Shown: positions 27,801 through 52,000 of the stretch, piece by piece
How positions within the stretch are numbered: position 1 is the first letter of the stretch
Layout: every line of letters begins with the position of its first letter
Assembly (NCBI GenBank): GCA_009914755.4
Contig: CP086569.2
Location: 30,752,001-30,816,000, forward strand
Length of the DNA: 64,000 nucleotides
Direction of reading: 5' to 3'
DNA from: the human T2T-CHM13v2.0 reference genome, Homo sapiens
Translations under genes and position numbers: made by a program
Notes under the pieces: model-generated
Seen by the model: the letters and a program-made list of their open reading frames with translations, nothing else
Told to the model about the DNA's origin: nothing
Databases searched by the model: none

Positions 27801-28438
27801 GCTGGAATGGAAAGGAATCGAAACGAATGGAATGGAATCGAACTGAAGAGACTGGAATGGAATGCACTGGAATGGAAGGGAGTGTAATGGAAGGTTCTCG
27901 AAAAAAATGGAATCGAATGGAATGGAATTGAATGGAACGGAATAGAGTCGAATGGAATTGAATGGAATGGAATGGACTAGAGTGAAATGGAATCGAACCA
28001 CAAGGAATGGACAGGAATAGAATGGTCTCGAATTGAATGGAATCGTATGGAATGTCATCAAACGGAATGGAATGGACAGCCACGGAATGGAATGCACTCG
28101 AATGCAATGGAGTCGAAACTAATGGACTGGAATAGAATGGACTCGACTGGTACGGACTCCAATGGAATGGAATCGAATGGAAGGGAATCGAACGGAATGG
28201 ACTCGAAGGGAAAAGACTGCAATGGAAAGGTCTCGAATGGAATGGAAATTAATGGAATGGAATGGAATCGAATGAAATGGAGTCAAAAGTAATGGAATCG
28301 AATGGCAAGAAATCGAATGTAATGGAATCGCAAGGAATTGATGTGAACGGAACGGAATGGAATGGAATCCAAAGGAATGGAATAGAATGGAATGGAATCG
28401 AATGGAAAGGACTCGAATGGAAATCACTCGAATAGAAT
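24876..28438 (+). repeat. HOR unit U8 (3563 bp)
   Basis: Landmark at 24876; GGCC at 27234. Private variants 'tgaatggcatggaataatatg' (~25015) and the 1-bp deletion 'gaagccaaagaatgg' (~25545), shared with U9 and the start of U10. Confidence 0.85.
26829..26878 (+). repeat. Perfect (GGAAT)10 tract at the same variable position in U8
   Basis: Ten uninterrupted GGAAT followed by 'ggtgtgg'. Confidence 0.8.
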
Positions 28439-31400: not shown

Positions 31401-32006
31401 TGGAATCGAACTGAAGAGACTGGAATGGAATGCACTGGAATGGAAGGGAGTGTAATGGAAGGTTCTCGAAAAAAATGGAATCGAATGGAATGGAATTGAA
31501 TGGAACGGAATAGAGTCGAATGGAATTGAATGGAATGGAATGGACTAGAGTGAAATGGAATCGAACCACAAGGAATGGACAGGAATAGAATGGTCTCGAA
31601 TTGAATGGAATCGTATGGAATGGCATCAAACGGAATGGAATGGACAGCCACGGAATGGAATGCACTCGAATGCAATGGAGTCGAAACTAATGGACTGGAA
31701 TAGAATGGACTCGACTGGTACGGACTCCAATGGAATGGAATCGAATGGAAGGGAATCGAACGGAATGGACTCGAAGGGAAAAGACTGCAATGGAAAGGTC
31801 TCGAATGGAATGGAAATTAATGGAATGGAATGGAATCGAATGAAATGGAGTCAAAAGTAATGGAATCGAATGGCAAGAAATCGAATGTAATGGAATCACA
31901 AGGAATTGATGTGAACGGAACGGAATGGAATGGAATCCAAAGGAATGGAATAGAATGGAATGGAATCGAATGGAAAGGACTCGAATGGAAATCACTCGAA
32001 TAGAAT
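28439..32006 (+). repeat. HOR unit U9 (3568 bp)
   Basis: Landmark at 28439; GGCC at 30802; same private variants as U8 (~28578, ~29108). Confidence 0.85.
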
Positions 32007-35000
32007 GCAATTTAATAAAATAGGATAAAATGTAATGGAATGGAATGGAAGGGAATCGAAACGAAAGGAATGGAGACAGATGGAATGGAATGGAACAGAG
32101 AGCAATGGTATAGAATGGAATGGAATCATCTGGAATGGAATTGAATGGCATGGAATAATATGAAATGGAATGGAATGGAATGGAATGGAATGCCCTTGAA
32201 TTAAATGGACTGGAATGGAATGGACTCGAACAGAGTGGAATGGAAAGTGTTGAGATAGAATGGAATGGACTCCTTTGGAATGGTGTAGTATGCAATGCAA
32301 TCGACTGGCAGGGAATCAAAAGGAATGTAATCGAATGGATTGGACTGGAATGCAATGGACTCGAATAGATTGCAAACGGAATGCAAAGGAATGGAATGGA
32401 ATAGTATGGAATGGAATGGAAAGGAATGGAGTGGAATAGACTAGAGTGGAATGGAATGGACTGGAAAGCAATGGACTGGAATGGAACTTTCTTGAATGGA
32501 CTGGAATCAAACGGAATGGAATGCAATGCAATCAAATGGCATGGAATAAAATAGAATGAAAGAGAATCAAATGGAATTGAATCGAATGGAATCGAATGGA
32601 TTGGAAAGGAATAGAATGGAATGGAATGGAATGGACTCAAATGGAATGGACTAGAATGGAATGGATTCGAATGGAAGCCAAAGAATGGAATCTATTGGAA
32701 TGGACTGTAATGGAATGGAATGGAAGTGATTGGAATGGACTCGAATGGAATGGACTGCAATAGAAAGGATTCGAATGGAATGAAAAAGAATTGAATGGAA
32801 TAGAACAGAATGGAATCAAATCGAATGAAATGGAATGGAATAGAAAGGAATGGAATGAAATGGAATGGAAAGGATTCGAATGGAATGCAATCGAATGGAA
32901 TGGAATCGAACGGAATGGAATAAAATGGAAGAAAACTGGCAAGAAATGGAATCGAAATGAATGGAGTGTTATGGAACGGACTCAAAAGGAATTGAATGTA
33001 ATAGAATGGAGTGGAGTGGACTCGAATATAATGGACTGGAATGGAATGAAATCACATGGAATGGGAACGAATGGAATGGAATGGAAAGGAATGGAATCGA
33101 ATGGAAAGGAATCGAATGGAAGGGAATGAAATTGAATCAACAGGAATGGAAGGGAATAGAATAGACGGTAATGGAATGGACTCGAATAGAATGGACACGA
33201 ATGCTCAAATTGAATGGACTCGAATGGAATGGAAACGAAAGGAATGTCATCGAATGGAATTGAATCGATTGGAATGAAATCGCATAGAATGGAGTGGAAT
33301 CAAATGGAATTGAATCGAAAGGAAAGGAAGCGAATGGACTGAAATGAAATGGAATGGAATTGAATGGAAAGTAATGCAATGGAATAGAATGGAACGAAAT
33401 TTCACGGAATGGAATCAAACTGAATGGAATCAAATCAATGGAATCCAATCAAATGGAATGGAGTAGATTGGATTGGATGGGATTGGAATGAAATGTACTG
33501 GAAAGGACTCGAATTTCATGAAACGGAATGGAATGAATTGGAACGGAATGGACTCGAATGGAATGGAATGACATGGAATGGCATCAAATGGAATGGCATC
33601 AAATGGAATGGAATCGAATGCAATGGAATGCTATGGAAGGGAATGGAATGCATTGGAATGGAATGTCCTCTAATGGAATGGATTCGAGTGGAATGGAATC
33701 GAATATAATGGAGTCGAATGAAATGGAATTGAAAGGAATGGGATCGAATACAATGGAATATACTGGAATGTAATGTAATGAACTCGAATGTAATTGACTG
33801 GAATGGAATGTACATGAATGGAATGTAATCGAATGGAAAGTAATCCAATGGAATAGAATCTAATGCAATAAAATCGACTCAGATAGAGTAGAATGTAATG
33901 GAATGGAGTGCAGTGCAATGGAATGGAATGGAATGGAATGCAATTGAATGGAATGGAATGGAATGGAATGGAATGGAATGGAATGGAATGGGATGGAATG
34001 GTATGGAATGGATAGTAATGGACTGGAGTGAAATGGACTGGAAAGGAATGGACTCAAATTGAAAGGGCTCGAAAGGAATGGAGTCAAATGGAATGGTCTG
34101 GAATGGAATGAACAAGAATGTAATGCAATCCAATAGAATGGAATCGAATGACATGGAATATAAAGAAATGGAATCGGAGAGAATGGAAACAAATGGAATT
34201 GAATTGAATGGAATGGAATTGAATGGTATGGGAACGAATGGAGTGAAATTGTATGCAGTAGAAGGGAATAGAATGGAATGCAAGCGAAAGGAAAGGAATG
34301 GATTGGAATGGAATGGAATTCATTGGAATGGAAGGGAATGTAGTGTAATGGACAGGCCTGGAATAAAGTGGAATGCTACGGTCTCGAATGGAATAAAAAT
34401 GTATGGAATGGAATGCAATGAAATGGAATCGAATGTCATAGAATGTAATGGAATGCAACAAAATGGAATCCAAAATCATTGACTGGAAAGGCTGGGTGTC
34501 GAAAGGAATTGACTCCAATGGAATGGAATCGAATGGAATGGAAGTGAATAGAATCGAACTAAATCGAATGGAATGGAATTGATAGGAACGGAATGGAAAG
34601 GAATGCAATGATTTGGCATGGAATGGAATCGAATGGCATCGAATGGAATGGAATGGAATGCAATGGAATGGAATGTATTAGAATGTAATGAACTTTAATG
34701 GAATGTACTCGAATGGATTCGACTGGAATGGAATGTTCTGGAAGTGAATGGACTCCAATGGAATGGATTCCAAAGGAATGGAATCGTACGGAATGGAATC
34801 TAATGGAATGGAATTAAATGGAAATGAATCAAATTGAATAGCACGGAATTGAATTGAATGGAATGGAATGCAATGGAATCTAATGAAACGGAAAGGAAAG
34901 GAATGGAATGGAATGGAATGGGCTGGAATGGAAAGGAATCGAAACGAATGGAATGGAATCGAACTGAAGAGACTGGAATGGAATGCACTGGAATGGAAGG

Positions 35001-36974
35001 GAGTGTAATGGAAGGTTCTCGAAAAAAATGGAATCGAATGGAATGGAATTGAATGGAACGGAATAGAGTCGAATGGAATTGAATGGAATGGAATGGACTA
35101 GAGTGAAATGGAATCGAACCACAAGGAATGGACATGAATAGAATGGTCTCGAATTGAATGGAATCGTATGGAATGGCATCAAACGGAATGGAATGGACAG
35201 CCACGGAATGGAATGCACTCGAATGCAATGGAGTCGAAACTAATGGACTGGAATAGAATGGACTCGACTGGTACGGACTCCAATGGAATGGAATCGAATG
35301 GAAGGGAATCGAACGGAATGGACTCGAAGGGAAAAGACTGCAATGGAAAGGTCTCGAATGGAATGGAAATTAATGGAATGGAATGGAATCGAATGAAATG
35401 GAGTCAAAAGGAATGGAATCGAATGGCAAGAAATCGAATGTAATGGAATCACAAGGAATTGATGTGAACGGAACGGAATGGAATGGAATCCAAAGGAATG
35501 GAATAGAATGGAATGGAATCGAATGGAAAGGACTCGAATGGAAATCACTCGAATAGAATGCAATTTAATAAAATAGGATAAAATGTAATGGAATGGAATG
35601 GAAGGGAATCGAAACGAAAGGAATGGAGACAGATGGAATGGAATGGAACAGAGAGCAATGGTATAGAATGGAATGGAATCATCTGGAATGGAATTGAATG
35701 GAATGGAATAATATGAAATGGAATGGAATGGAATTCATTGGAATGGAAGGGAATGTAGTGTAATGGACAGGCCTGGAATAAAGTGGAATGCTACGGTCTC
35801 GAATGGAATAAAAATGTATGGAATGGAATGCAATGAAACGGAATCGAATGTCATAGAATGTAATGGAATGCAAAAAAATGGAATCCAAAATCATTGACTG
35901 GAAAGGCTGGGTGTCGAAAGGAATTGACTCCAATGGAATGGAATCAAATGGAATGGAAGTGAATAGAATCGAACTAAATCGAATGGAATGGAATTGATAG
36001 GAACGGAATGGAAAGGAATGCAATGATTTGGCATGGAATGGAATCGAATGGCATCGAATGGAATGGAATGGAATGCAATGGAATGGAATGTATTAGAATG
36101 TAATGAACTTTAATGGAATGTACTCGAATGGATTCGACTGGAATGGAATGTTCTGGAAGTGAATGGACTCCAATGGAATGGATTCAAAAGGAATGGAATC
36201 GTACAGAATGGAATCTAATGGAATGGAATTAAATGGAAATGAATCAAATTGAATAGCACGGAATTGAATTGAATGAAATGGAATGCAATGGAATCTAATG
36301 AAACGGAAAGGAAAGGAATGGAATGGAATGGAATGGGCTGGAATGGAAAGGAATCGAAACGAATGGAATGGAATCGAACTGAAGAGACTGGAATGGAATG
36401 CACTGGAATGGAAGGGAGTGTAATGGAAGGTTCTCGAAAAAAATGGAATCGAATGGAATGCAATTGAATGGAACGGAATAGAGTCGAATGGAATTGAATG
36501 GAATGGAATGGACTAGAGTGAAATGGAATCGAACCACAAGGAATGGACAGGAATAGAATGGTCTCGAATTGAATGGAATCGTATGGAATGGCATCAAACG
36601 GAATGGAATGGACAGCCACGGAATGGAATGCACTCGAATGCAATGGAGTCGAAACTAATGGACTGGAATAGAATGGACTCGACTGGTACGGACTCCAATG
36701 GAATGGAATCGAATGGAAGGGAATCGAACGGAATGGACTCGAAGGGAAAAGACTGCAATGGAAAGGTCTCGAATGGAATGGAAATTAATGGAATGGAATG
36801 GAATCGAATGAAATGGAGTCAAAAGTAATGGAATCGAATGGCAGGAAATCGAATGTAATGGAATCGCAAGGAATTGATGTGAACGGAACGGAATGGAATG
36901 GAATCCAAAGGAATGGAATAGAATGGAATGGAATCGAATGGAAAGGACTCGAATGGAAATCACTCGAATAGAAT
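32007..36974 (+). repeat. HOR unit U10, long variant (4968 bp) containing a 1.415-kb internal tandem duplication
   Basis: Landmark at 32007, repeated inside the duplication at 35560 and 36975 (+1415). GGCC at 34355 and 35770 (+1415). Junction at ~35721-35735 within shared 'atggaatggaatggaat'. Confidence 0.85.
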
Positions 36975-37145
36975 GCAATTTAATAAAATAGGATCAAATG
37001 TAATGGAATGGAATGGAAAGGAATCGAAACGAAAGGAATGGAGACAGATGGAATGGAATGGAACAGAGAGCAATGGTATAGAATGGAATGGAATCATCTG
37101 GAATGGAATTGAATGGAATGGAATAATATGAAATGGAATGGAATG
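35731..37145 (+). repeat. Second copy of the 1.415-kb intra-unit tandem duplication (first copy ~34316-35730)
   Basis: 'ggaattcattgg' at 34315-34326 recurs at 35730-35741. 'ggaataatatg' ends at 35715 and again at 37130. The pseudo-ORF 34800..35228 repeats at 36215..36643 (+1415). Confidence 0.85.
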
Positions 37146-40100
37146 GAATGGAATGGAATGGAATGGAATGCCCTTGAATTAAATGGACTGGAATGGAATG
37201 GACTCAAACAGAGTGGAATGGAAAGTGTTGAGATAGAATGGAATGGACTCCTTTGGAATGGTCTAGTATGCAATGCAATCGACTGGTAGGGAATCAAAAG
37301 GAATGTAATCGAATGGATTGGACTGGAATGCAATGGACTCGAATAGATTGGAAACGGAATGCAAAGGAATGGAATGGAATAGTATGGAATGGAATGGAAA
37401 GGAATGGAGTGGAATAGACTAGAGTGGAATGGAATGGACTGGAAAGCAATGGACTGGAATGGAACTTTCTTGAATGGACTGGAATCAAACGGAATGGAAT
37501 GCAATGCAATCAAATGGCATGGAATAAAATAGAATGAAAGAGAATCAAATGGAATTGAATCGAATGGAATCGAATGGATTGGAAAGGAATAGAATGGAAT
37601 GGAATGGAATTGACTCAAATGGAATGGACTAGAATGGAATGGATTCGAATGGAAGGCAAAGGAATGGAATCTATTGGAATGGACTGTAATGGAATGGAAT
37701 GGAAGGGATTGGAATGGACTCGAATGGAATGGACTGCAATAGAAAGGATTCGAATGGAATGAAAAAGAATTGAATGGAATAGAACAGAATGGAATCAAAT
37801 CGAATGAAATGGAATGGAATAGAAAGGAATGGAATGAAATGGAATGGAAAGGATTCGAATGGAATGCAATCGAATGGAATGGAATCGAACGGAATGGAAT
37901 AAAATGGAAGAAAACTGGCAAGAAATGGAATCGAAATGAATGGAGTGTTATGGAACGGACTCAAAAGGAATTGAATGTAATAGAATGGAGTGGAGTGGAC
38001 TCGAATATAATGGACTGGAATGGAATGAAATCACATGGAATGGGAACGAATGGAATGGAATGGAAAGGAATGGAATCGAATGGAAAGGAATCGAATGGAA
38101 GGGAATGAAATTGAATCAACAGGAATGGAAGGGAATAGAATAGACGGTAATGGAATGGACTCGAATAGAATGGACACGAATGCTCAATTTGAATGGACTC
38201 GAATGGAATGGAAACGAAAGGAATGTCATCGAATGGAATTGAATCGATTGGAATGAAATCGCATAGAATGGAGTGGAATCAAATGGAATTGAATCGAAAG
38301 GAAAGGAAGCGAATGGACTGAAATGAAATGGAATGGAATTGAATGGAAAGTAATGCAATGGAATAGAATGGAACGAAATTTCACGGAATGGAATCAAACT
38401 GAATGGAATCAAATCAATGGAATCTAATCAAATGGAATGGAAAGGAATTGAATGGAGTAGATTGGATTGGATGGGATTGGAATGAAATGTACTGGAAAGG
38501 ACTCGAATTTCATGAAACGGAATGGAATGAATTGGAACGGAATGGACTCGAATGGAATGGAATGTCATGGAATGGCATCAAATGGAATGGCATCAAATGG
38601 AATGGAATCGAATGCAATGGAATGTTATGGAATGGAATGGAATGCATTGGAATGGAATGTCCTCTAATGGAATGGATTCGAGTGGAATGGAATCGAATAT
38701 AATGGAGTCGAATGAAATGGAATTGAAAGGAATGGGATCGAATCGAATGGAATATACTGGAATGTAATGTAATGAACTCGAATGTAATTGACTGGAATGG
38801 AATGTACATGAATGGAAGGTAATCGAATGGAAAGTAATCCAATGGAATAGAATCTAATGCAATAAAATCGACTCAGATAGAGTAGAATGTAATGGAATGG
38901 AGTGCAGTGCAATGGAATGGAATGGAATTGAATGCAATGGAATGGAATGGAATGGAATGGAATGGAATGGAATGGAATGGAATGGGATGGAATGGTATGG
39001 AATGGATAGTAATGGACTGGAGTGAAATGGACAGGAAAGGAATGGACTCAAATTGAAAGGGCTCGAAAGGAATGGAGTCAAATGGAATGGTCTGGAATGG
39101 AATGAACACGAATGTAATGCAATCCAATAGAATGGAATCGAATGGCATGGAATATAAAGAAATGGATTCGAAGAGAATGGAAACAAATGGAATGGAATTG
39201 AATGGAATGGAATTGAATGGAATGGGAACGAATGGAGTGAAATTGTATGCAGTAGAAGGGAATAGAATGGAATGCAAGCGAAAGGAAAGGAATGGATTGG
39301 AATGGAATGGAATTCATTGGAATGGAAGGGAATGTAGTGTAATGGACAGGCCTGGAATAAAGTGGAATGCTACGGTCTCGAATGGAATAAAAATGTATGG
39401 AATGGAATGCAATGAAACGGAATCGAATGTCATAGAATGTAATGGAATGCAACAAAATGGAATCCAAAATCATTGACTGGAAAGGCTGGGTGTCGAAAGG
39501 AATTGACTCCAATGGAATGGAATCGAATGGAATGGAAGTGAATAGAATCGAACTAAATCGAATGGAATGGAATTGATAGGAACGGAGTGGAAAGGAATGC
39601 AATGATTTGGCATGGAATGGAATCGAATGGCATCGAATGGAATGGAATGGAATGCAATGGAATGGAATGTATTAGAATGTAATGAACTTTAATGGAACAT
39701 ACTCGAATGGATTCGACTGGAATGGAATGTTCTGGAAGTGAATGGACTCCAATGGAATGGATTCAAAAGGAATGGAATTGTACGGAATGGAATCTAATGG
39801 AATGGAATTAAATGGAAATGAATCAAATTGAATAGCACGGAATTGAATTGAATGGAATGGAATGCAATGGAATCTAATGAAACGGAAAGGAAAGGAATGG
39901 AATGGAATGGAATGGGCTGGAATGGAAAGGAATCGAAACGAATGGAATGGAATCGAACTGAAGAGACTGGAATGGAATGCACTGGAATGGAAGGGAGTGT
40001 AATGGAAGGTTCTCGAAAAAAATGGAATCGAATGGAATGGAATTGAATGGAACGGAATAGAGTCGAATGGAATTGAATGGAATGGAATGGACTAGAGTGA

Positions 40101-40553
40101 AATGGAATCGAACCACAAGGAATGGACAGGAATAGAATGGTCTCGAATTGAATGGAATCGTATGGAATGGCATCAAACGGAATGGAATGGACAGCCACGG
40201 AATGGAATGCACTCGAATGCAATGGAGTCGAAACTAATGGACTGGAATAGAATGGACTCGACTGGTACGGACTCCAATGGAATGGAATCGAATGGAAGGG
40301 AATCGAACGGAATGGACTCGAAGGGAAAAGACTGCAATGGAAAGGTCTCGAATGGAATGGAAATTAATGGAATGGAATGGAATCGAATGAAATGGAGTCA
40401 AAAGGAATGGAATCGAATGGCAAGAAATCGAATGTAATGGAATCGCCAGGAATTGATGTGAACGGAACGGAATGGAATGGAATCCAAAGGAATGGAATAG
40501 AATGGAATGGAATCGAATGGAAAGGACTCGAATGGAAATCACTCGAATAGAAT
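36975..40553 (+). repeat. HOR unit U11 (3579 bp)
   Basis: Landmark at 36975; GGCC at 39349. Private variants 'gctcaatttgaatgg' (~38177) and 'gggatcgaatcgaatgg' (~38738). Confidence 0.85.
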
Positions 40554-43500
40554 GCAATTTAATAAAATAGGATCAAATGTAATGGAATGGAATGGAAAGG
40601 AATCGAAACGAAAGGAATGGAGACAGATGGAATGGAATAGAACAGCGAGCAATGGTATAGAATGGAATGGAATCATCTGGAATGGAATTGAATGGAATGG
40701 AATAATATGAAATGGAATGGAATGGAATGGAATGGAATGGAATGCCCTTGAATTAAATGGACTGGAATGGAATGGACTCGAACAGAGTGGAATGGAAAGT
40801 GTTGAGATAGAATGGAATGGACTCCTTTGGAATGGTGTAGTATGCAATGCAATCGACTGGCAGGGAATCAAATGGAATGTAATCGAATGGATTGGACTGG
40901 AATGCAATGGACTCGAATAGATTGCAAACGGAATGCAAAGGAATGGAATGGAATAGTATGGAATGGAATGGAAAGGAATGGAGTGGAATAGACTAGAGTG
41001 GAATGGAATGGACTGGAAAGCAATGGACTGGAATGGAACTTTCTTGAATGGACTGGAATCAAACGGAATGGAATGCAATGCAATCAAATGGCATGGAATA
41101 AAATAGAATGAAAGAGAATCAAATGGAATTGAATCGAATGGAATCGAATGGATTGGAAAGGAATAGAATGGAATGGAATGGAATGGACTCAAATGGAATG
41201 GACTAGAATGGAATGGATTCGAATGGAAGGCAAAGGAATGGAATCTATTGGAATGGACTGTAATGGAATGGAATGGAAGGGATTGGAATGGACTCGAATG
41301 GAATGGACTGCAATAGAAAGGATTCGAATGGAATGAAAAAGAATTGAATGGAATAGAACAGAATGGAATCAAATCGAATGAAATGGAATGGAATAGAAAG
41401 GAATGGAATGAAATGGAATGGAAAGGATTCGAATGGAATGCAATCAAATGGAATGGAATCGAACGGAATGGAATAAAATGGAAGAAAACTGGCAAGAAAT
41501 GGAATCGAAATGAATGGAGTGTTATGGAACGGACTCAAAAGGAATTGAATGTAATAGAATGGAGTGGAGTGGACTCGAATATAATGGACTGGAATGGAAT
41601 GAAATCACATGGAATGGGAACGAATGGAATGGAATGGAAAGGAATGGAATCGAATGGAAAGGAATCGAATGGAAGGGAATGAAATTGAATCAACAGGAAT
41701 GGAAGGGAATAGAATAGACGGCAATGGAATGGACTCGAATAGAATGGACACGAATGCTCAAATTGAATGGACTCGAATGGAATGGAAACGAAAGGAATGT
41801 CATCGAATGGAATTGAATCGATTGGAATGAAATCGCATAGAATGGAGTGGAATCAAATGGAATTGAATCGAAAGGAAAGGAAGCGAATGGACTGAAATGA
41901 AATGGAATGGAATTGAATGGAAAGTAATGCAATGGAATAGAATGGAACGAAATTTCACGGAATGGAATCAAACTGAATGGAATCAAATCAATGGAATCAA
42001 ATCAAATGAATGGAAAGGAATTGAATGGAGTAGATTGGATTGGATGGGATTGGAATGAAATGTACTGGAAAGGACTCGAATTTCATGAAACGGAATGGAA
42101 TGAATTGGAACGGAATGGACTCGAATGGAATGGAATGACATGGAATGGCATCAAATGGAATGGCATCAAATGGAATGGAATCGAATGCAATGGAATGCTA
42201 TGGAAGGGAATGGAATGCATTGGAATGGAATGTCCTCTAATGGAATGGATTCGAGTGGAATGGAATCGAATATAATGGAGTCGAATGAAATGGAATTGAA
42301 AGGAATGGGATCGAATACAATGGAATATACTGGAATGTAATGTAATGAACTCGAATGCAATTGACTGGAATGGAATGTACATGAATGGAATGTAATCGAA
42401 TGGAAAGTAATCCAATGGAATAGAATCTAATGCAATAAAATCGACTCAGATAGAGTAGAATGTAATGGAATGGAGTGCAGTGCAATGGAATGGAATGGAA
42501 TGGAATGCAATTGAATGGAATGGAATGGAATGGAATGGAATGGAATGGAATGGGATGGAATGGTATGGAATGGATAGTAATGGACTGGAGTGAAATGGAC
42601 TGGAAAGGAATGGACTCAAATTGAAAGGGCTCGAAAGGAATGGAGTCAAATGGAATGGTCTGGAATGGAATGAACAAGAATGTAATGCAATCCAATAGAA
42701 TGGAATCGAATGACATGGAATATAAAGAAATGGAATCGGAGAGAATGGAAACAAATGGAATTGAATTGAATGGAATGGAATTGAATGGTATGGGAACGAA
42801 TGGAGTGAAATTGTATGCAGTAGAAGGGAATAGAATGGAATGCAAGCGAAAGGAAAGGAATGGATTGGAATGGAATGGAATTCATTGGAATGGAAGGGAA
42901 TGTAGTGTAATGGACAGGCCTGGAATAAAGTGGAATGCTACGGTCTCGAATGGAATAAAAATGTATGGAATGGAATGCAATGAAATGGAATCGAATGTCA
43001 TAGAATGTAATGGAATGCAACAAAATGGAATCCAAAATCATTGACTGGAAAGGCTGGGTGTCGAAAGGAATTGACTCCAATGGAATGGAATCGAATGGAA
43101 TGGAAGTGAATAGAATCGAACTAAATCGAATGGAATGGAATTGATAGGAACGGAATGGAAAGGAATGCAATGATTTGGCATGGAATGGAATCGAATGGCA
43201 TCGAATGGAATGGAATGGAATGCAATGGAATGGAATGTATTAGAATGTAATGAACTTTAATGGAATGTACTCGAATGGATTCGACTGGAATGGAATGTTC
43301 TGGAAGTGAATGGACTCCAATGGAATGGATTCCAAAGGAATGGAATCGTACGGAATGGAATCTAATGGAATGGAATTAAATGGAAATGAATCAAATTGAA
43401 TAGCACGGAATTGAATTGAATGGAATGGAATGCAATGGAATCTAATGAAACGGAAAGGAAAGGAATGGAATGGAATGGAATGGGCTGGAATGGAAAGGAA

Positions 43501-45536
43501 TCGAAACGAATGGAATGGAATCGAACTGAAGAGACTGGAATGGAATGCACTGGAATGGAAGGGAGTGTAATGGAAGGTTCTCGAAAAAAATGGAATCGAA
43601 TGGAATGGAATTGAATGGAACGGAATAGAGTCGAATGGAATTGAATGGAATGGAATGGACTAGAGTGAAATGGAATCGAACCACAAGGAATGGACATGAA
43701 TAGAATGGTCTCGAATTGAATGGAATCGTATGGAATGGCATCAAACGGAATGGAATGGACAGCCACGGAATGGAATGCACTCGAATGCAATGGAGTCGAA
43801 ACTAATGGACTGGAATAGAATGGACTCGACTGGTACGGACTCCAATGGAATGGAATCGAATGGAAGGGAATCGAACGGAATGGACTCGAAGGGAAAAGAC
43901 TGCAATGGAAAGGTCTCGAATGGAATGGAAATTAATGGAATGGAATGGAATCGAATGAAATGGAGTCAAAAGGAATGGAATCGAATGGCAAGAAATCGAA
44001 TGTAATGGAATCACAAGGAATTGATGTGAACGGAACGGAATGGAATGGAATCCAAAGGAATGGAATAGAATGGAATGGAATCGAACGGAAAGGACTCGAA
44101 TGGAAATCACTCTAATAGAATGCAATTTAATAAAATAGGATAAAATGTAATGGAATGGAATGGAAGGGAATCGAAACGAAAGGAATGGAGACAGATGGAA
44201 TGGAATGGAACAGAGAGCAATGGTATAGAATGGAATGGAATCATCTGGAATGGAATTGAATGGAATGGAATAATATGAAATGGAATGGAATGGAATTCAT
44301 TGGAATGGAAGGGAATGTAGTGTAATGGACAGGCCTGGAATAAAGTGGAATGCTACGGTCTCGAATGGAATAAAAATGTATGGAATGGAATGCAATGAAA
44401 CGGAATCGAATGTCATAGAATGTAATGGAATGCAAAAAAATGGAATCCAAAATCATTGACTGGAAAGGCTGGGTGTCGAAAGGAATTGACTCCAATGGAA
44501 TGGAATCAAATGGAATGGAAGTGAATAGAATCGAACTAAATCGAATGGAATGGAATTGATAGGAACGGAATGGAAAGGAATGCAATGATTTGGCATGGAA
44601 TGGAATCGAATGGCATCGAATGGAATGGAATGGAATGCAATGGAATGGAATGTATTAGAATGTAATGAACTTTAATGGAATGTACTCGAATGGATTCGAC
44701 TGGAATGGAATGTTCTGGAAGTGAATGGACTCCAATGGAATGGATTCAAAAGGAATGGAATCGTACAGAATGGAATCTAATGGAATGGAATTAAATGGAA
44801 ATGAATCAAATTGAATAGCACGGAATTGAATTGAATGAAATGGAATGCAATGGAATCTAATGAAACGGAAAGGAAAGGAATGGAATGGAATGGAATGGGC
44901 TGGAATGGAAAGGAATCGAAACGAATGGAATGGAATCGAACTGAAGAGACTGGAATGGAATGCACTGGAATGGAAGGGAGTGTAATGGAAGGTTCTCGAA
45001 AAAAATGGAATCGAATGGAATGCAATTGAATGGAACGGAATAGAGTCGAATGGAATTGAATGGAATGGAATGGACTAGAGTGAAATGGAATCGAACCACA
45101 AGGAATGGACAGGAATAGAATGGTCTCGAATTGAATGGAATCGTATGGAATGGCATCAAACGGAATGGAATGGACAGCCACGGAATGGAATGCACTCGAA
45201 TGCAATGGAGTCGAAACTAATGGACTGGAATAGAATGGACTCGACTGGTACGGACTCCAATGGAATGGAATCGAATGGAAGGGAATCGAACGGAATGGAC
45301 TCGAAGGGAAAAGACTGCAATGGAAAGGTCTCGAATGGAATGGAAATTAATGGAATGGAATGGAATCGAATGAAATGGAGTCAAAAGTAATGGAATCGAA
45401 TGGCAAGAAATCGAATGTAATGGAATCGCAAGGAATTGATGTGAACGGAACGGAATGGAATGGAATCCAAAGGAATGGAATAGAATGGAATGGAATCGAA
45501 TGGAAAGGACTCGAATGGAAATCACTCGAATAGAAT
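40554..45536 (+). repeat. HOR unit U12, long variant (4983 bp) with the same 1.415-kb internal tandem duplication
   Basis: Landmark at 40554, duplicated landmarks at 44122 and 45537 (+1415). GGCC at 42917 and 44332 (+1415). Junction at ~44283-44297 in the same microhomology as U10. Confidence 0.85.
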
Positions 45537-45707
45537 GCAATTTAATAAAATAGGATCAAATGTAATGGAATGGAATGGAAAGGAATCGAAACGAAAGGAA
45601 TGGAGACAGATGGAATGGAATGGAACAGAGAGCAATGGTATAGAATGGAATGGAATCATCTGGAATGGAATTGAATGGAATGGAATAATATGAAATGGAA
45701 TGGAATG
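44293..45707 (+). repeat. Second copy of the 1.415-kb intra-unit tandem duplication (first copy ~42878-44292)
   Basis: 'ggaattcattgg' at 42877-42888 and 44292-44303. 'aatatg' ends at 44277 and 45692. The pseudo-ORF 43362..43790 repeats at 44777..45205. Confidence 0.85.
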
Positions 45708-48700
45708 GAATGGAATGGAATGGAATGGAATGCCCTTGAATTAAATGGACTGGAATGGAATGGACTCGAACAGAGTGGAATGGAAAGTGTTGAGATAGAA
45801 TGGAATGGACTCCTTTGGAATGGTCTAGTATGCAATGCAATCGACTGGTAGGGAATCAAAAGGAATGTAATCGAATGGATTGGACTGGAATGCAATGGAC
45901 TCGAATAGATTGGAAACGGAATGCAAAGGAATGGAATGGAATAGTATGGAATGGAATGGAAAGGAATGGAGTGGAATAGACTAGAGTGGAATGGAATGGA
46001 CTGGAAAGCAATGGACTGGAATGGAACTTTCTTGAATGGACTGGAATCAAACGGAATGGAATGCAATGCAATCAAATGGCATGGAATAAAATAGAATGAA
46101 AGAGAATCAAATGGAATTGAATCGAATGGAATCCAATGGATTGGAAAGGAATAGAATGGAATGGAATGGAATTGACTCAAATGGAATGGACTAGAATGGA
46201 ATGGATTCGAATGGAAGGCAAAGGAATGGAATCTATTGGAATGGACTGTAATGGAATGGAATGGAAGGGATTGGAATGGACTCGAATGGAATGGACTGCA
46301 ATAGAAAGGATTCGAATGGAATGAAAAAGAATTGAATGGAATAGAACAGAATGGAATCAAATCGAATGAAATGGAATGGAATAGAAAGGAATGGAATGAA
46401 ATGGAATGGAAAGGATTCGAATGGAATGCAATCGAATGGAATGGAATCGAACGGAATGGAATAAAATGGAAGAAAACTGGCAAGAAATGGAATCGAAATG
46501 AATGGAGTGTTATGGAACGGACTCAAAAGGAATTGAATGTAATAGAATGGAGTGGAGTGGACTCGAATATAATGGACTGGAATGGAATGAAATCACATGG
46601 AATGGGAACGAATGGAATGGAATGGAAAGGAATGGAATCGAATGGAAAGGAATCGAATGGAAGGGAATGAAATTGAATCAACAGGAATGGAAGGGAATAG
46701 AATAGACGGTAATGGAATGGACTCGAATAGAATGGACACGAATGCTCAATTTGAATGGACTCGAATGGAATGGAAACGAAAGGAATGTCATCGAATGGAA
46801 TTGAATCGATTGGAATGAAATCGCATAGAATGGAGTGGAATCAAATGGAATTGAATCGAAAGGAAAGGAAGCGAATGGACTGAAATGAAATGGAATGGAA
46901 TTGAATGGAAAGTAATGCAATGGAATAGAATGGAACGAAATTTCACGGAATGGAATCAAACTGAATGGAATCAAATCAATGGAATCAAATCAAATGGAAT
47001 GGAAAGGAATTGAATGGAGTAGATTGGATTGGATGGGATTGGAATGAAATGTACTGGAAAGGACTCGAATTTCATGAAACGGAATGGAATGAATTGGAAC
47101 GGAATGGACTCGAATGGAATGGAATGTCATGGAATGGCATCAAATGGAATGGCATCAAATGGAATGGAATCGAATGGAATGGAATGCATTGGAATGGAAT
47201 GTCCTCTAATGGAATGGATTCGAGTGGAATGGAATCGAATATAATGGAGTCGAATGAAATGGAATTGAAAGGAATGGGATCGAATACAATGGAATATACT
47301 GGAATGTAATGTAATGAACTCGAATGTAATTGACTGGAATGGAATGTACGTGAATGGAATGTAATCGAATGGAAAGTAATCCAATGGAATAGAATCTAAT
47401 GCAATAAAATCGACTCAGATAGAGTAGAATGTAATGGAATGGAGTGCAGTGCAATGGAATGGAATGGAATGGAATGCAATTGAATGGAATGGAATGGAAT
47501 GGAATGGAATGGAATGGGATGGAATGGTATGGAATAGATAGTAATGGACTGGAGTTAAATGGACTGGAAAGGAATGGACTCAAATTGAAAGGGCTCGAAA
47601 GGAATGGAGTCAAATGGAATGGTCTGGAATGGAATGAACACGAATGTAATGCAATCCAATAGAATGGAATCGAATGGCATGGAATATAAAGAAATGGAAT
47701 CAGAGAGAATGGAAACAAATGGAATGGAATTGAATGGAATGGAATTGAATGGAATGGGAACGAATGGAGTGAAATTGTATGCAGTATAAGGGAATAGAAT
47801 GGAATGCAAGCGAGAGGAAAGGAATGGATTGGAATGGAATGGAATTCATTGGAATGGAAGGGAATGTAGTGTAATGGACAGGCCTGGAATAAAGTGGAAT
47901 GCTACGGTCTCGAATGGAATAAAAATGTATGGAATGGAATGCAATGAAATGGAATCGAATGTCATAGAATGTAATGGAATGCAACAAAATGGAATCCAAT
48001 ATCATTGACTGGAAAGGCTGGGTGTCGAAAGGAATTGACTCCAATGGAATGGAATCGAATGGAATGGAAGTGAATAGAATCGAACTAAATCGAATGGAAT
48101 GGAATTGATAGGAACGGAATGGAAAGGAATGCAATGATTTGGCATGGAATGGAATCGAATGGCATCGAATGGAATGGAATGGAATGCAATGGAATGGAAT
48201 GTATTAGAATGTAATGAACTTTAATGGAATGTACTCGAATGGATTCGACTGGAATGGAATGTTCTGGAAGTGAATGGACTCCAATGGAATGGATTCAAAA
48301 GGAATGGAATCGTACGGAATGGAATCTAATGGAATGGAATTAAATGGAAATGAATCAAATTGAATAGCACGGAATTGAATTGAATGGAATGGAATGCAAT
48401 GGAATCTAATGAAACGGAAAGGAAAGGAATGGAATGGAATGGAATGGGCTGGAATGGAAAGGAATCGAAACGAATGGAATGGAATCGAACTGAAGAGACT
48501 GGAATGGAATGCACTGGAATGGAAGGGAGTGTAATGGAAGGTTCTCGAAAAAAATGGAATCGAATGGAATGGAATTGAATGGAACGGAATAGAGTCGAAT
48601 GGAATTGAATGGAATGGAATGGACTAGAGTGAAATGGAATCGAACCACAAGGAATGGAGAGGAATAGAATGGTCTCGAATTGAATGGAATCGTATGGAAT

Positions 48701-49085
48701 GGCATCAAACGGAATGGAATGGACAGCCACGGAATGGAATGCACTCGAATGCAATGGAGTCGAAACTAATGGACTGGAATAGAATGGACTCGACTGGTAC
48801 GGACTCCAATGGAATGGAATCGAATGGAAGGGAATCGAACGGAATGGACTCGAAGGGAAAAGACTGCAATGGAAAGGTCTCGAATGGAATGGAAATTAAT
48901 GGAATGGAATGGAATCGAATGAAATGGAGTCAAAAGGAATGGAATCGAATGGCAAGAAATCGAATGTAATGGAATCGCAAGGAATTGATGTGAACGGAAC
49001 GGAATGGAATGGAATCCAAAGGAATGGAATAGAATGGAATGGAATCGAATGGAAAGGACTCGAATGGAAATCACTCGAATAGAAT
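45537..49085 (+). repeat. HOR unit U13 (3549 bp); carries a 20-bp pentamer-phase deletion
   Basis: Landmark at 45537; GGCC at 47881. At ~47171 'cgaatggaatggaatgcattgg' replaces the usual 'cgaatgcaatggaatgctatggaatggaatggaatgcattgg'. Shares 'gctcaatttgaatgg' (~46747) with U11. Confidence 0.85.
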
Positions 49086-52000
49086 GCAATTTAATAAAAT
49101 AGGATCAAATGTAATGGAATGGAATGGAAAGGAATCGAAACGAAAGGAATGGAGACAGATGGAATGGAATGGAACAGAGAGCAATGGTATAGAATGGAAT
49201 GGAATCATCTGGAATGGAATTGAATGGAATGGAATAATATGAAATGGAATGGAATGGAATGGAATGGAATGCCCTTGAATTAAATGGACTGGAATGGAAT
49301 GGACTCGAACAGAGTGGAATGGAAAGTGTTGAGATAGAATGGAATGGACTCCTTTGGAATGGTCTAGTATGCAATGCAATCGACTGGCAGGGAATCAAAA
49401 GGAATGTAATCGAATGGATTGGACTGGAATGCAATGGACTCGAATAGATTGGAAACGGAATGCAAAGGAATGGAATGGAATAGTATGGAATGGAATGGAA
49501 AGGAATGGAGTGGAATAGACTAGAGTGGAATGGAATGGACTGGAAAGCAATGGACTGGAATGGAACTTTCTTGAATGGACTGGAATCAAACGGAATGGAA
49601 TGCAATGCAATCAAATGGCATGGAATAAAATAGAATGAAAGAGAATCAAATGGAATTGAATCGAATGGAATCGAATGGATTGGAAAGGAATAGAATGGAA
49701 TGGAATGGAATTGACTCAAATGGAATGGACTAGAATGGAATGGATTCGAATGGAAGGCAAAGGAATGGAATCTATTGGAATGGACTGTAATGGAATGGAA
49801 TGGAAGGGATTGGAATGGACTCGAATGGAATGGACTGCAATAGAAAGGATTCGAATGGAATGAAAAAGAATTGAATGGAATAGAACAGAATGGAATCAAA
49901 TCGAATGAAATGGAATGGAATAGAAAGGAATGGAATGAAATGGAATGGAAAGGATTCGAATGGAATGCAATCGAATGGAATGGAATCGAACGGAATGGAA
50001 TAAAATGGAAGAAAACTGGCAAGAAATGGAATCGAAATGAATGGAGTGTTATGGAACGGACTCAAAAGGAATTGAATGTAATAGAATGGAGTGGAGTGGA
50101 CTCGAATATAATGGACTGGAATGGAATGAAATCACATGGAATGGGAACGAATGGAATGGAATGGAAAGGAATGGAATCGAATGGAAAGGAATCGAATGGA
50201 AGGGAATGAAATTGAATCAACAGGAATGGAAGGGAATAGAATAGACGGTAATGGAATGGACTCGAATAGAATGGACACGAATGTTCAAATTGAATGGACT
50301 CGAATGGAATGGAAACGAAAGGAATGTCATCGAATGGAATTGAATCGATTGGAATGAAATCGCATAGAATGGAGTGGAATCAAATGGAATTGAATCGAAA
50401 GGAAAGGAAGCGAATGGACTGAAATGAAATGGAATGGAATTGAATGGAAAGTAATGCAATGGAATAGAATGGAACGAAATTTCACGGAATGGAATCAAAC
50501 TGAATGGAATCAAATCAATGGAATCAAATCAAATGGAATGGAAAGGAATTGAATGGAGTAGATGGGATTGGATGGGATTGGAATGAAATGTACTGGAAAG
50601 GACTCGAATTTCATGAAACGGAATGGAATGAATTGGAACGGAATGGACTCGAATGGAATGGAATGTCATGGAATGGCATCGAATGGAATGGCATCAAATG
50701 GAATGGAATCGACTGCAATGGAATGTTATGGAATGGAATGGAATGCATTGGAATGGAATGTCCTCTAATGGAATGGATTCGAGTGGAATGGAATCGAATA
50801 TAATGGAGTCGAATGAAATGGAATTGAAAGGAATGGGATCGAATAGAATGGAATATACTGGAATGTAATGTAATGAACACGAATGTAATTGACTGGAATG
50901 GAATGTACATGAATGGAAGGTAATCGAATGGAAAGTAATCCAATGGAATAGAATCTAATGCAATAAAACCGACTCAGATAGAGTAGAATGTAATGGAATG
51001 GAGTGCAGTGCAATGGAATGGAATGGAATTGAATGCAATGGAATGGAATGGAATGGAATGGAATGGGATGGAATGGGATGGAATGGTATGGAATGGATAG
51101 AAATGGACTGGAGTGAAATGGACTGGAAAGGAATGCACTCAAATTGAAAGGGCTCGAAAGGAATGGAGTCAAATGGAATGGTCTGGAATGGAATGAACAC
51201 GAATGTAATGCAATCCAATAGAATGGAATCGAATGGCATGGAATATAAAGAAATGGATTCGAAGAGAATGGAAACAAATGGAATGGAATTGAATGGAATG
51301 GAATTGAATGGAATGGGAACGAATGGAGTGAAATTGTATGCAGTAGAAGGGAATAGAATGGAATGCAAGCGAAAGGAAAGGAATGGATTGGAATGGAATG
51401 GAATTCATTGGAATGGAAGGGAATGTAGTGTAATGGACAGGCCTGGAATAAAGTGGAATGCTACGGTCTCGAATGGAATAAAAATGTATGGAATGGAATG
51501 CAATGAAACGGAATCGAATGTCATAGAATGTAATGGAATGCAAAAAAATGGAATCCAAAATCATTGACTGGAAAGGCTGGGTGTCGAAAGGAATTGACTC
51601 CAATGGAATGGAATCGAATGGAATGGAAGTGAATAGAATCGAACTAAATCGAATGGAATGGAATTGATAGGAACGGAATGGAAAGGAATGCAATGATTTG
51701 GCATGGAATGGAATCGAATGGCATCGAATGGAATGGAATGGAATGCAATGGAATGGAATGTATTAGAATGTAATGAACTTTAATGGAACGTACTCGAATG
51801 GATTCGACTGGAATGGAATGTTCTGGAAGTGAATGGACTCCAATGGAATGGATTCAAAAGGAATGGAATTGTACGGAATGGAATCTAATGGAATGGAATT
51901 AAATGGAAATGAATCAAATTGAATAGCACGGAATTGAATTGAATGGAATGGAATGCAATGGAATCTAATGAAACGGAAAGGAAAGGAATGGAATGGAATG

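What the first reader, a model, noticed from the sequence alone, without database searches (positions are those of the whole stretch)
42878..45707. The same duplication, with an identical junction, recurs in U12
U12 carries the same 1415-bp duplication, with copies at ~42878-44292 and ~44293-45707. Landmarks lie at 44122 and 45537, and GGCC at 42917 and 44332. The junction reads 'ggaataatatgaaatggaatggaatggaattcattggaatggaaggg' (44271-44310), which is character-for-character the junction in U10. Two independent events are very unlikely to land on the same microhomology register. The duplication therefore more likely arose once and was then copied, either as part of a larger duplication or by gene conversion.
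Basis: seen in the sequence. Interest (0 to 1): 0.55.

Follow-up and report, generated by a model that had tools for sequence, protein, structure and literature searches.

The report
Copied unit variant in Y-chromosome satellite
Two neighbouring repeat units of the human Y-chromosome satellite DYZ1 carry the same extra 1.4-kb piece because a block of about 5-6 kb holding it was made once and later copied two units along, which is ordinary satellite-array turnover.

Summary
42878-44292 and 44293-45707 are 99.0% identical at an offset of exactly 1415 bp. The 47-nt junction occurs exactly twice in the window, at 35705 and 44267.

The window is human Y satellite DYZ1 (HSat3A6). It has a pentamer GGAAT base and a ~3.56-kb unit. 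Published DYZ1 primers and the HSat3A6 24-mer match once or more per unit.

Single origin is strongly supported. All 12 sites that separate the first copy from the second are shared between U10 and U12.

Three refinements:
- The shared tract is 4.7-6.4 kb (core 33456-38609 = 42023-47171). That is shorter than the 8562-bp spacing. It has a sharp right edge, marked in U12 by a private 20-bp deletion. I favour a long non-reciprocal copy (conversion type) into U12 over an intact tandem duplication.
- The two 1415-bp copies differ as much as random units do and carry different pre-existing variants. The B-B joint therefore arose by unequal exchange between different units. It could equally be a deletion of the 2.1-kb remainder.
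- Junction identity alone is only moderate evidence. The flanking haplotypes decide the question.

This is known biology and of low interest.

The parts
42874..44288 (+). B12a, the first 1415-bp copy in U12. It holds the EcoRI site at 42878 and the HaeIII site at 42917.
   Evidence: It differs at 2 sites from B10a and at 14 from B12b.
44289..45703 (+). B12b, the second 1415-bp copy in U12. It holds the EcoRI site at 44293 and the HaeIII site at 44332.
   Evidence: It differs at 1 site from B10b.
44281..44296 (+). The 16-nt microhomology T(GGAAT)3 in which the B-end to B-start joint lies. To its left the sequence is specific to the B end (...AATAATATGAAA). To its right it is specific to the B start (TCATTGGAATGGAAGGG).
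   Evidence: One search compares all normal A-to-B and B-to-A boundaries with the two junctions. The 47-mer occurs only at 35705 and 44267.
34312..37141 (+). The U10 doublet, B10a (34312-35726) plus B10b (35727-37141). Its junction microhomology is at 35719-35734.
33456..38609 (+). Copy 1 of the recently shared tract (core). It comprises the last ~860 bp of segment A9, then B10a, B10b and the first ~1470 bp of A10b. The left edge could lie anywhere from 32164 to 33946.
   Evidence: 8 difference events in 5155 bp (0.155%) against 1.18% outside. All 7 substitutions are private to one copy.
42023..47171 (+). Copy 2 of the shared tract (core), the probable recipient. Its right edge at 47171|47172 coincides with a 20-bp deletion found nowhere else.
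   Evidence: A12b resembles A4 and A13 only to the left of the edge, whereas A10b resembles them on both sides.
38610..41280 (+). Sequence between the two tracts (end of A10b, B11, start of A11). It is not shared at the 8562-bp offset. Instead it is weakly related to B14 plus the start of A14.
   Evidence: B11 vs B13 differ at 10 sites, B9 vs B11 at 16, and B11 vs B14 at 6.

Best explanation
The window is a stretch of the human Y-chromosome satellite DYZ1 (HSat3A6). Each ~3.56-kb unit can be read as a ~2.14-kb segment A followed by a 1415-bp segment B.

Step 1 (inferred). An unequal exchange joined the (GGAAT)n run at the end of a B to the T(GGAAT)3 run just upstream of another unit's B. This gave A-B-B-A, a ~4.98-kb variant unit. 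The two Bs came from different units. The event can equally be described as loss of the A between two neighbouring units. It kept the pentamer register.

Step 2 (the copying is shown, the mechanism is inferred). A tract of about 5-6 kb, centred on the B-B doublet, was copied once between U10 and U12, which lie 8562 bp apart. The most likely route is a long non-reciprocal patch: gene-conversion-type repair of a break in U12, templated by a misaligned U10 on the sister chromatid or the same chromatid. Its right end sits at 47171, where a 20-bp deletion between GAATG repeats looks like a repair scar.

Since then the two copies have gained 3 and 4 private point mutations in the core. The feature has no gene-like function. 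It is a marker of how this satellite turns over.

The confidence of 0.55 applies to the whole statement, including the conversion-type route. The component 'the joint arose once and was then copied' alone is about 0.95.
For: Identity as DYZ1:
- TRF finds a pentamer-based array over the whole window.
- Unit spacing is 3523-3584 bp.
- Six of eight published DYZ1 primers (PMC3925983) match exactly, five of them in 15-19 units and primer B in only two; the other two match with one error in 18-19 units. The HSat3A6-specific 24-mer (PMC4022460) matches exactly 30 times. The marker 24-mers of the other HSat3 subfamilies have no match with fewer than 2 errors.

Single origin:
- 99.89% identity over 2830 bp against a 99.0% background.
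- 12 of 12 a/b-diagnostic sites are shared between U10 and U12.
- Both doublets are followed by the same (GGAAT)7 run.

The two Bs come from different units:
- a carries 7 states and b carries 5 states that depart from the consensus of 15 outside DYZ1 copies.
- 10 of the 12 are also present in other units of the window.

A patch rather than an intact duplication:
- The tract is 4.7-6.4 kb against an 8562-bp spacing.
- B9/B11 (16 differences), B11/B13 (10) and the right parts of A10b/A12b (14) are at background level.

U12 as recipient:
- A10b is 7 and 5 substitutions from A4 on the two sides of the right edge. A12b is 6 and 14.
- The 20-bp deletion at the edge is unique in the window and absent from 34 outside loci.

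Clock-like divergence after the copy: all 7 core substitutions are singletons, 3 in copy 1 and 4 in copy 2.

Literature:
- Interlocus gene conversion is reported for 29% of de novo Yq12 SNVs (PMC12240836).
- Unequal sister-chromatid exchange is the standard model for Yq12.
Against: - The left edge of the tract is not resolved. Candidates from 32164 to 33946 differ by only about 1.3 log-likelihood units.
- One candidate for the left edge, 32727/32728, coincides with the end of a separate tract linking A8 and A9. A later event may therefore have trimmed the tract. That leaves room for an originally full 8.56-kb duplication.
- A 5-6-kb conversion tract carrying a 1.4-kb insertion is long compared with the median 542 bp reported for Y palindromes (PMC13252187).
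- The donor and recipient assignment rests on similarity to two other units only.
- Only 64 kb of an array that is probably hundreds of kb long is visible. The two copies could be related through further copies outside the window.
Confidence: 0.55

Rival explanations
1. Unequal sister-chromatid exchange made an 8562-bp tandem duplication, one variant unit plus one normal unit. Later exchange or conversion with other units overwrote 2-4 kb of it. Only the 4.7-6.4-kb tract remains visibly shared.
For: - Unequal exchange is the accepted driver of Yq12 structure. Whole-unit gains and losses (seen so far in DYZ2) arise about once per Y transmission.
- If S1 = 30048-38609 and S2 = 38610-47171, the sharp right edge would be the crossover point itself.
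- The missing left part (30048-32727) lies wholly inside the A8-B9-A9 tract (28606-32727). That tract is independently seen to be a recent copy of A7-B8-A8. This would explain why one candidate left edge sits exactly at 32727.
Against: - It needs two events where a patch transfer needs one. The second event is itself a conversion-type overwrite.
- It predicts that A10b is the hybrid unit at the right edge and that A12b is contiguous. Similarity to A4 and A13 says the opposite.
- It does not account for the private 20-bp deletion at the edge in A12b.
Confidence: 0.33
2. Two independent unequal exchanges occurred at the same hotspot pair of (GGAAT)n runs and produced the same joint twice.
For: - The joint lies in a 16-nt perfect microhomology.
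- (GGAAT)n runs are plausible recurrent breakpoints.
- The B-end run varies in length between units, from 4 to 7 repeats.
Against: - a/a and b/b are the two closest B pairs of 171 (2 and 1 differences), while a/b differ at 13-14 sites.
- 12 of 12 diagnostic sites are shared.
- High identity extends about 0.9 kb to the left and about 1.5 kb to the right of the doublet.
- About nine eligible runs per unit give roughly 36 possible pairs and several registers.
Confidence: 0.02
3. Assembly artefact: the second doublet is a false duplication made by the assembler in a near-identical satellite.
For: Satellite arrays are prone to assembly error (PMC13252187 describes manual curation of such regions). 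No reads are available here.
Against: - The two tracts differ by 7 private substitutions and at least one indel.
- Their flanks differ on both sides.
- They lie only 8.5 kb apart, well within the length of single long reads.
- A false duplicate would normally be identical, or would share its flanks.
Confidence: 0.03

Closest known systems
DYZ1 / HSat3A6, the ~3.56-kb pentamer-derived satellite of human Yq12
   Same: - Built on the pentamer GGAAT.
- 3523-3584-bp units with one HaeIII site and one EcoRI site per unit.
- Published primers and the subfamily-specific 24-mer match.
- About 99% identity between units, as reported (>98%).
   Different: Two of the 17 full units seen here are 1415 bp longer (B-B doublet). 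The papers I could read report wide HaeIII fragment-length variation but do not name a 1415-bp class. No B-B joint was found among 37 A-to-B boundaries in 34 independent contaminant contigs.
Structural variants of alpha-satellite higher-order repeats, meaning units that gained or lost monomers by out-of-register unequal exchange and then spread locally
   Same: It is a length variant of the higher-order unit. It was created by exchange between internally homologous sub-repeats, was then propagated to a nearby unit, and sits among canonical units. This comparison rests on general knowledge of alpha-satellite structure and of reviews listed, which I did not read in detail.
   Different: The sub-repeat here is a 5-bp motif, not a 171-bp monomer. 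The exchange therefore used only 16 nt of microhomology rather than a full homologous monomer.
Interlocus gene conversion in Yq12 and long-tract sister-chromatid conversion
   Same: A non-reciprocal-looking patch is bounded on both sides by unrelated sequence. Gene conversion within DYZ1/DYZ2 is inferred from de novo mutations (29% of Yq12 SNVs, PMC12240836; 17%, PMC13252187).
   Different: The published inferences concern single SNVs or short clusters, and the median tract in Y palindromes is 542 bp. Here the tract would be about 5-6 kb and would carry a 1.4-kb insertion.
Alu insertions used as lineage tracers of DYZ unit expansion (Hallast et al., 43 Y assemblies)
   Same: A rare structural mark inside a repeat unit shows which units descend from one another.
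   Different: The mark here is an internal rearrangement of the satellite itself, not a mobile-element insertion. Its ancestral state is therefore less certain.

Membership tests
DYZ1 / HSat3A6 satellite | Array derived from the pentamer GGAAT (TTCCA/CATTC on the other strand) | tested here: met
   TRF reports one array over 77-64000 with GAATG-based consensus units. GC is 0.38-0.40 with strong GC skew throughout. Published DYZ1 GC content is 38%.
DYZ1 / HSat3A6 satellite | Higher-order unit of about 3.56 kb with one HaeIII site per unit | tested here: met
   Virtual HaeIII fragments are 3524-3579 bp. The exceptions are two 1415-bp fragments and one 7147-bp fragment where a site is mutated. 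The published modal fragments are 3,564 and 3,569 bp.
DYZ1 / HSat3A6 satellite | Sequence match to published DYZ1 primers and to the HSat3A6-specific 24-mer | tested here: met
   Primers C, D, E and F match exactly in 15-19 units, and B matches exactly in 2 units. A, G and H match with one error in 18-19 units. The 24-mer TCGTTTCGATTCCTTTCCATTCCA matches exactly 30 times. The marker 24-mers of other HSat3 subfamilies match only with 2 errors or not at all.
DYZ1 / HSat3A6 satellite | Location on Yq12, male-specific | not testable with these tools
   No human genome is searchable here. The only indirect support is that near-identical sequence turns up as contaminant contigs in human-associated metagenomes and bacterial assemblies, as reported for Y HSat3.
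Unequal-exchange length variant of a repeat unit | Breakpoint lies in sequence shared by the two joined positions, and the repeat register is kept | tested here: met
   There is a 16-nt shared T(GGAAT)3 at the joint, and 1415 = 283 x 5.
Unequal-exchange length variant of a repeat unit | Reciprocal product (an A-A unit lacking B) exists | tested here: not met
   No ~2.1-kb EcoRI or HaeIII spacing occurs in the 64-kb window. This is not expected to be decisive, because reciprocal products segregate to the other chromatid.
Intact tandem duplication of 8562 bp | Elevated identity at the duplication offset over one whole period | tested here: not met
   Elevated identity covers 4.7-6.4 kb. The remaining 2.1-3.9 kb is at background level, about 1.2%.
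Gene-conversion-type patch | High-identity tract bounded on both sides by background divergence and shorter than the distance between the copies | tested here: met
   The right edge is sharp. The left edge lies within a 1.8-kb range.
Gene-conversion-type patch | One copy (the recipient) is mosaic at the tract edges while the donor is contiguous | tested here: inconclusive
   At the right edge, U12 is mosaic and U10 is contiguous. At the left edge, U10's A9 itself changes lineage at 32727 because of the A8-A9 tract.
Gene-conversion-type patch | Non-reciprocity, with the donor unchanged | not testable with these tools
   This needs ancestral or related Y haplotypes.

The most novel reading that the evidence does not exclude
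The U10/U12 pair would be a clean, datable example of long-tract (5 kb or more) non-reciprocal sequence transfer between non-adjacent DYZ1 units. The transfer carries a 1.4-kb structural insertion and leaves a 20-bp deletion scar at one end. That would show that structural unit variants in Yq12 spread by conversion as well as by unequal crossing-over. It would also make the 47-nt junction a usable lineage marker for tracing DYZ1 array history across Y haplogroups.
Probability: 0.4. Interest if true: 0.35.

Novelty: new member of a known kind. Interest (0 to 1): 0.17.

Why it matters
It matters little beyond satellite biology. DYZ1 is a well-described satellite, and unequal exchange and gene conversion are the textbook forces shaping it.

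The modest value is as a worked example. A rare structural mark lets one event of sequence spread be delimited to the base on one side. It can be dated roughly: 7 substitutions in 5154 bp, with the published Yq12 rate of 3.86e-7 per bp per generation, gives on the order of 1,800 generations. This is my own arithmetic and a rough inference. The example also shows layered exchange tracts within 64 kb.

The 47-nt junction could serve as a marker in population-scale Y assemblies.

Tried and rejected
- Global ungapped offset scan. It was uninformative because units differ by 5-nt-multiple indels. I replaced it with segment-wise MAFFT alignments.
- Primer recalled from memory (TCCACTTTATTCCAGGCCTGTCC). 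It matches the window exactly once per unit, but I could not find it in the paper library. It is not used as evidence, and the published primers from PMC3925983 were used instead.
- Exact scans for the junction in bacterial and archaeal genomes, metagenomes and viral contigs. All gave 0 hits.
- Positive control with the normal B start. It found 34 contaminant loci with 37 normal A-to-B boundaries and no B-B joint. These are mostly short-read consensus contigs, so this only shows that the doublet is not the majority form.
- Supplement of the 43-Y paper. It has no mention of a 1415-bp or ~4984-bp fragment class.
- Pure crossover histories (one duplication plus whole-unit insertions or deletions). 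The partners they predict are not related: A10b right part vs A7 or A8 right part differ at 13-15 sites, B11 vs B8 or B9 at 16, and A12b right part vs A13 right part at 17. I rejected these as sufficient on their own.
- Not run: gene, ORF and RNA analyses, because the whole window is one pentamer satellite.
Full report
**What the window is**

Tandem Repeats Finder reports a single pentamer-based array over 77-64000. Composition is uniform, with GC 0.38-0.40 and strong G-over-C skew. Landmark words recur every 3523-3584 bp.

Published DYZ1 PCR primers (PMC3925983, Table 5) match as follows:
- six of eight match exactly, five of them in 15-19 units and primer B in only two;
- the other two match with one error;
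- the HSat3A6-specific 24-mer of Altemose et al. (PMC4022460) matches exactly 30 times;
- the marker 24-mers of the other HSat3 subfamilies have no match with fewer than two errors.

Virtual HaeIII and EcoRI digests give one site per unit and fragments of 3524-3579 bp. The published modal HaeIII fragment is 3,564-3,569 bp. The window is therefore human Y-chromosome satellite DYZ1 (HSat3A6, Yq12). The chromosomal location itself cannot be tested with these tools.

**The observation**

I divided each unit into two parts:
- B, 1415 bp, which starts 4 nt before the EcoRI site and holds the HaeIII site;
- A, about 2.14 kb.

The order in the relevant part of the window is A9 B10a B10b A10b B11 A11 B12a B12b A12b B13.

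- The 1415-bp offset identity is 0.990 in U12 and 0.991 in U10. It is 0.11-0.63 at neighbouring offsets.
- The 47-nt junction string occurs exactly twice, at 35705 and 44267.
- The two 1415-bp digest fragments are the only departures from the ~3.5-kb ladder, apart from one unit with a mutated HaeIII site.

**Anatomy of the joint**

I compared all normal boundaries with the two junctions.
- The end of B reads ...AATAATATGAAA-T(GGAAT)3-GGAATGGAATGCCC.
- The end of A reads ...GGAAAGGAATGGAT-T(GGAAT)3-TCATTGG.
- The joint therefore lies somewhere within a shared 16-nt T(GGAAT)3, at 44281-44296 and at 35719-35734.
- 1415 = 283 x 5, so the pentamer register is preserved.

A unit holds about nine (GGAAT)>=3 runs (plus the run cut by my frame). 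Two independent events would have to choose the same pair of runs and also the same register out of several. That is unlikely, on the order of 1%.

**Single origin**

The decisive evidence is the surrounding haplotype.
- Among 171 pairs of B segments, the two closest are B10b/B12b (1 difference) and B10a/B12a (2 differences).
- The median is 14. B10a/B10b and B12a/B12b differ at 13 and 14 sites.
That is 99.89% against a background of 99.0%.
- All 12 sites that separate copy a from copy b have the same states in U10 and U12.
- Both doublets are followed by a (GGAAT)7 run. Most units have 5 there.

Independent recurrence is effectively excluded.

**The two B copies are not twins**

Copies a and b are as different from each other as random units are. 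I compared them with 15 outside DYZ1 B segments from contaminant contigs.
- a carries 7 non-consensus states and b carries 5 different ones.
- 10 of the 12 are polymorphisms also present in other units of the window.

So the joint was most likely formed by exchange between two different units, not by duplication of one B in place. In a tandem array this is structurally identical to deleting the A between two neighbouring units. 'Duplication' is a description of the product, not of the event. This step is inference.

**Extent of the copied tract**

A global alignment of 30759-42873 against 39306-51396 lists every difference.
- Between 33456 and 38609 (partner 42023-47171) there are 8 events in 5155 bp (0.155%).
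- Outside that stretch the rate is 1.18%. Poisson P is about 2e-17.
- The right edge is sharp, at 38609|38610 and 47171|47172. It is followed by dense differences.
- In copy 2 the right edge coincides with a 20-bp deletion between GAATG repeats. The deletion is unique in the window and absent from 34 outside loci.
- The left edge is not resolved. Change-points from 32164 to 33946 differ by about 1.3 log-likelihood units.
- All seven substitutions in the core are singletons private to one copy, 3 in copy 1 and 4 in copy 2. This is what simple divergence after one copying event predicts.
- Left of 33456 the differences are of another kind. They are states shared with other units: A9 shares a C and a 14-bp deletion with A16, and its first ~560 columns match A7 and A8.

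**Mechanism of spread**

The tract (4.7-6.4 kb) is shorter than the spacing (8562 bp). An intact tandem duplication would show identity over the whole period, and it does not:
- B9/B11 differ at 16 sites;
- B11/B13 differ at 10 sites;
- the right parts of A10b and A12b differ at 14 sites.

At the right edge, A10b resembles A4 and A13 on both sides (7 and 5 substitutions from A4). A12b does so only on the tract side (6, then 14). U12 is therefore the mosaic copy.

The simplest account is one non-reciprocal transfer of about 5-6 kb from a U10-type donor into a normal unit two positions downstream. The 20-bp deletion would be a scar at the end of the tract. Interlocus gene conversion in Yq12 is independently inferred from pedigrees.

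The main rival is an 8562-bp unequal sister-chromatid duplication that was later overwritten. It gains some support from a coincidence. A separate tract, 25043-29159 vs 28606-32727 (12 events, 0.29%), ends at 32727, which is one candidate left edge. If that event came later, it could have erased the left part of a full-period duplication. However, this rival predicts that A10b, not A12b, is the hybrid unit. It also needs a conversion-type overwrite in any case.

I put the patch model near 0.55 and the duplication-plus-overwriting model near 0.33. The single-origin statement that both share is near 0.95.

Histories made only of crossovers and whole-unit insertions or deletions were checked. They fail because the partner segments they predict are unrelated.

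**Age (rough, inferred)**

Seven substitutions in 5154 bp give a pairwise divergence of 1.36e-3. The published Yq12 SNV rate is 3.86e-7 per bp per generation (PMC12240836). Together these suggest about 1,800 generations since the copy. The 0.85-0.9% a/b divergence is not an age, because the two Bs came from lineages that had already diverged.

**How common it is**

Exact scans for the junction found nothing in bacterial and archaeal genomes, metagenomes or viral contigs. A control pattern from the normal B start found 34 human-contaminant loci with 37 normal boundaries. Most of these are short-read consensus contigs. The result therefore shows only that the doublet is a minority form.

The 43-Y study reports wide HaeIII fragment-length variation in DYZ1 but names no 1415-bp class in the text I could read.

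**Comparison and verdict**

This is a length variant of a known satellite's higher-order unit. It was made by out-of-register exchange and spread locally. It is directly comparable to structural variants of alpha-satellite higher-order repeats, and to the Alu-marked DYZ units used as lineage tracers. The forces involved are the ones already proposed for Yq12.

The refinements are the tract limits, the probable direction of copying, and the non-twin origin of the two Bs. This is ordinary satellite dynamics and of low interest. It has some value as a clean, delimitable example and as a possible marker.

Noticed in passing
window 25043-29159 vs 28606-32727: This is a second recent copy tract, at an offset of one unit (A7-B8-start of A8 against A8-B9-start of A9). 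It has 12 differences in about 4.1 kb (0.29%). It is longer than one period, so the first ~555 bp of A are shared by A7, A8 and A9. Its end at 32727 coincides with a candidate left edge of the U10/U12 tract.
   Followed up: partly
window 39306-~42200 vs 51397-~54300: There is a weaker and probably older layer of similarity, about 0.45% over about 3.2 kb. It links B11 plus the left part of A11 to B14 plus the left part of A14, three units plus 1415 bp away. The left part of A is thus shared by A9, A11 and A14.
   Followed up: partly
window 33446-33455 (A9) and the homologous site in A16 (59904-62027): A9 and A16 lie about 27 kb apart. They alone share a C and an adjacent 14-bp deletion, a small patch common to distant units. 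The same column is tri-allelic: A in most units, C in A9 and A16, and T in A10b at 38425.
   Followed up: no
window ~13025 (unit 4): The unit's single HaeIII site is mutated from GGCC to GGTC. This gives a 7147-bp virtual HaeIII fragment, while the EcoRI ladder is unaffected.
   Followed up: yes
window 9613 (B3), 63016 (B17), 17142 (B5): There are private indels in multiples of 5 nt. B3 and B17 each have a 15-bp insertion, at different positions, and B5 has a 10-bp deletion in a GGAAT run.
   Followed up: no
window 32174, 37142, 40721, 45704 (the (GGAAT)n run after the end of B): The run has 5 repeats in most units, 4 in some, 6 after B11, and 7 after both B10b and B12b. This repeat-length state is shared by the two doublets.
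   Followed up: yes
L001-L006 (genome contigs) and L007-L034 (metagenome contigs): Near-consensus human DYZ1 units sit in records labelled as bacteria. Examples are Actinomadura cremea BMRF01000076.1, Streptosporangium violaceochromogenes BNBB01000077.1, Streptomyces kurssanovii BMTN01000077.1 and a Polyangiaceae MAG. They also sit in many metagenome assemblies. This is the human-contamination problem already described for Y HSat3.
   Followed up: partly
L022 around 1476-1495: This contaminant contig ends in the Illumina adapter sequence AGATCGGAAGAGC, directly after DYZ1 sequence.
   Followed up: no
window-wide, TRF 23-nt landmark CTCAAATAGAATGGACACGAATG: TRF reports this short two-copy repeat in only 13 of the units. 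It is missing near 36.7 kb, 45-50 kb and 57 kb, so this sub-region varies between units.
   Followed up: no
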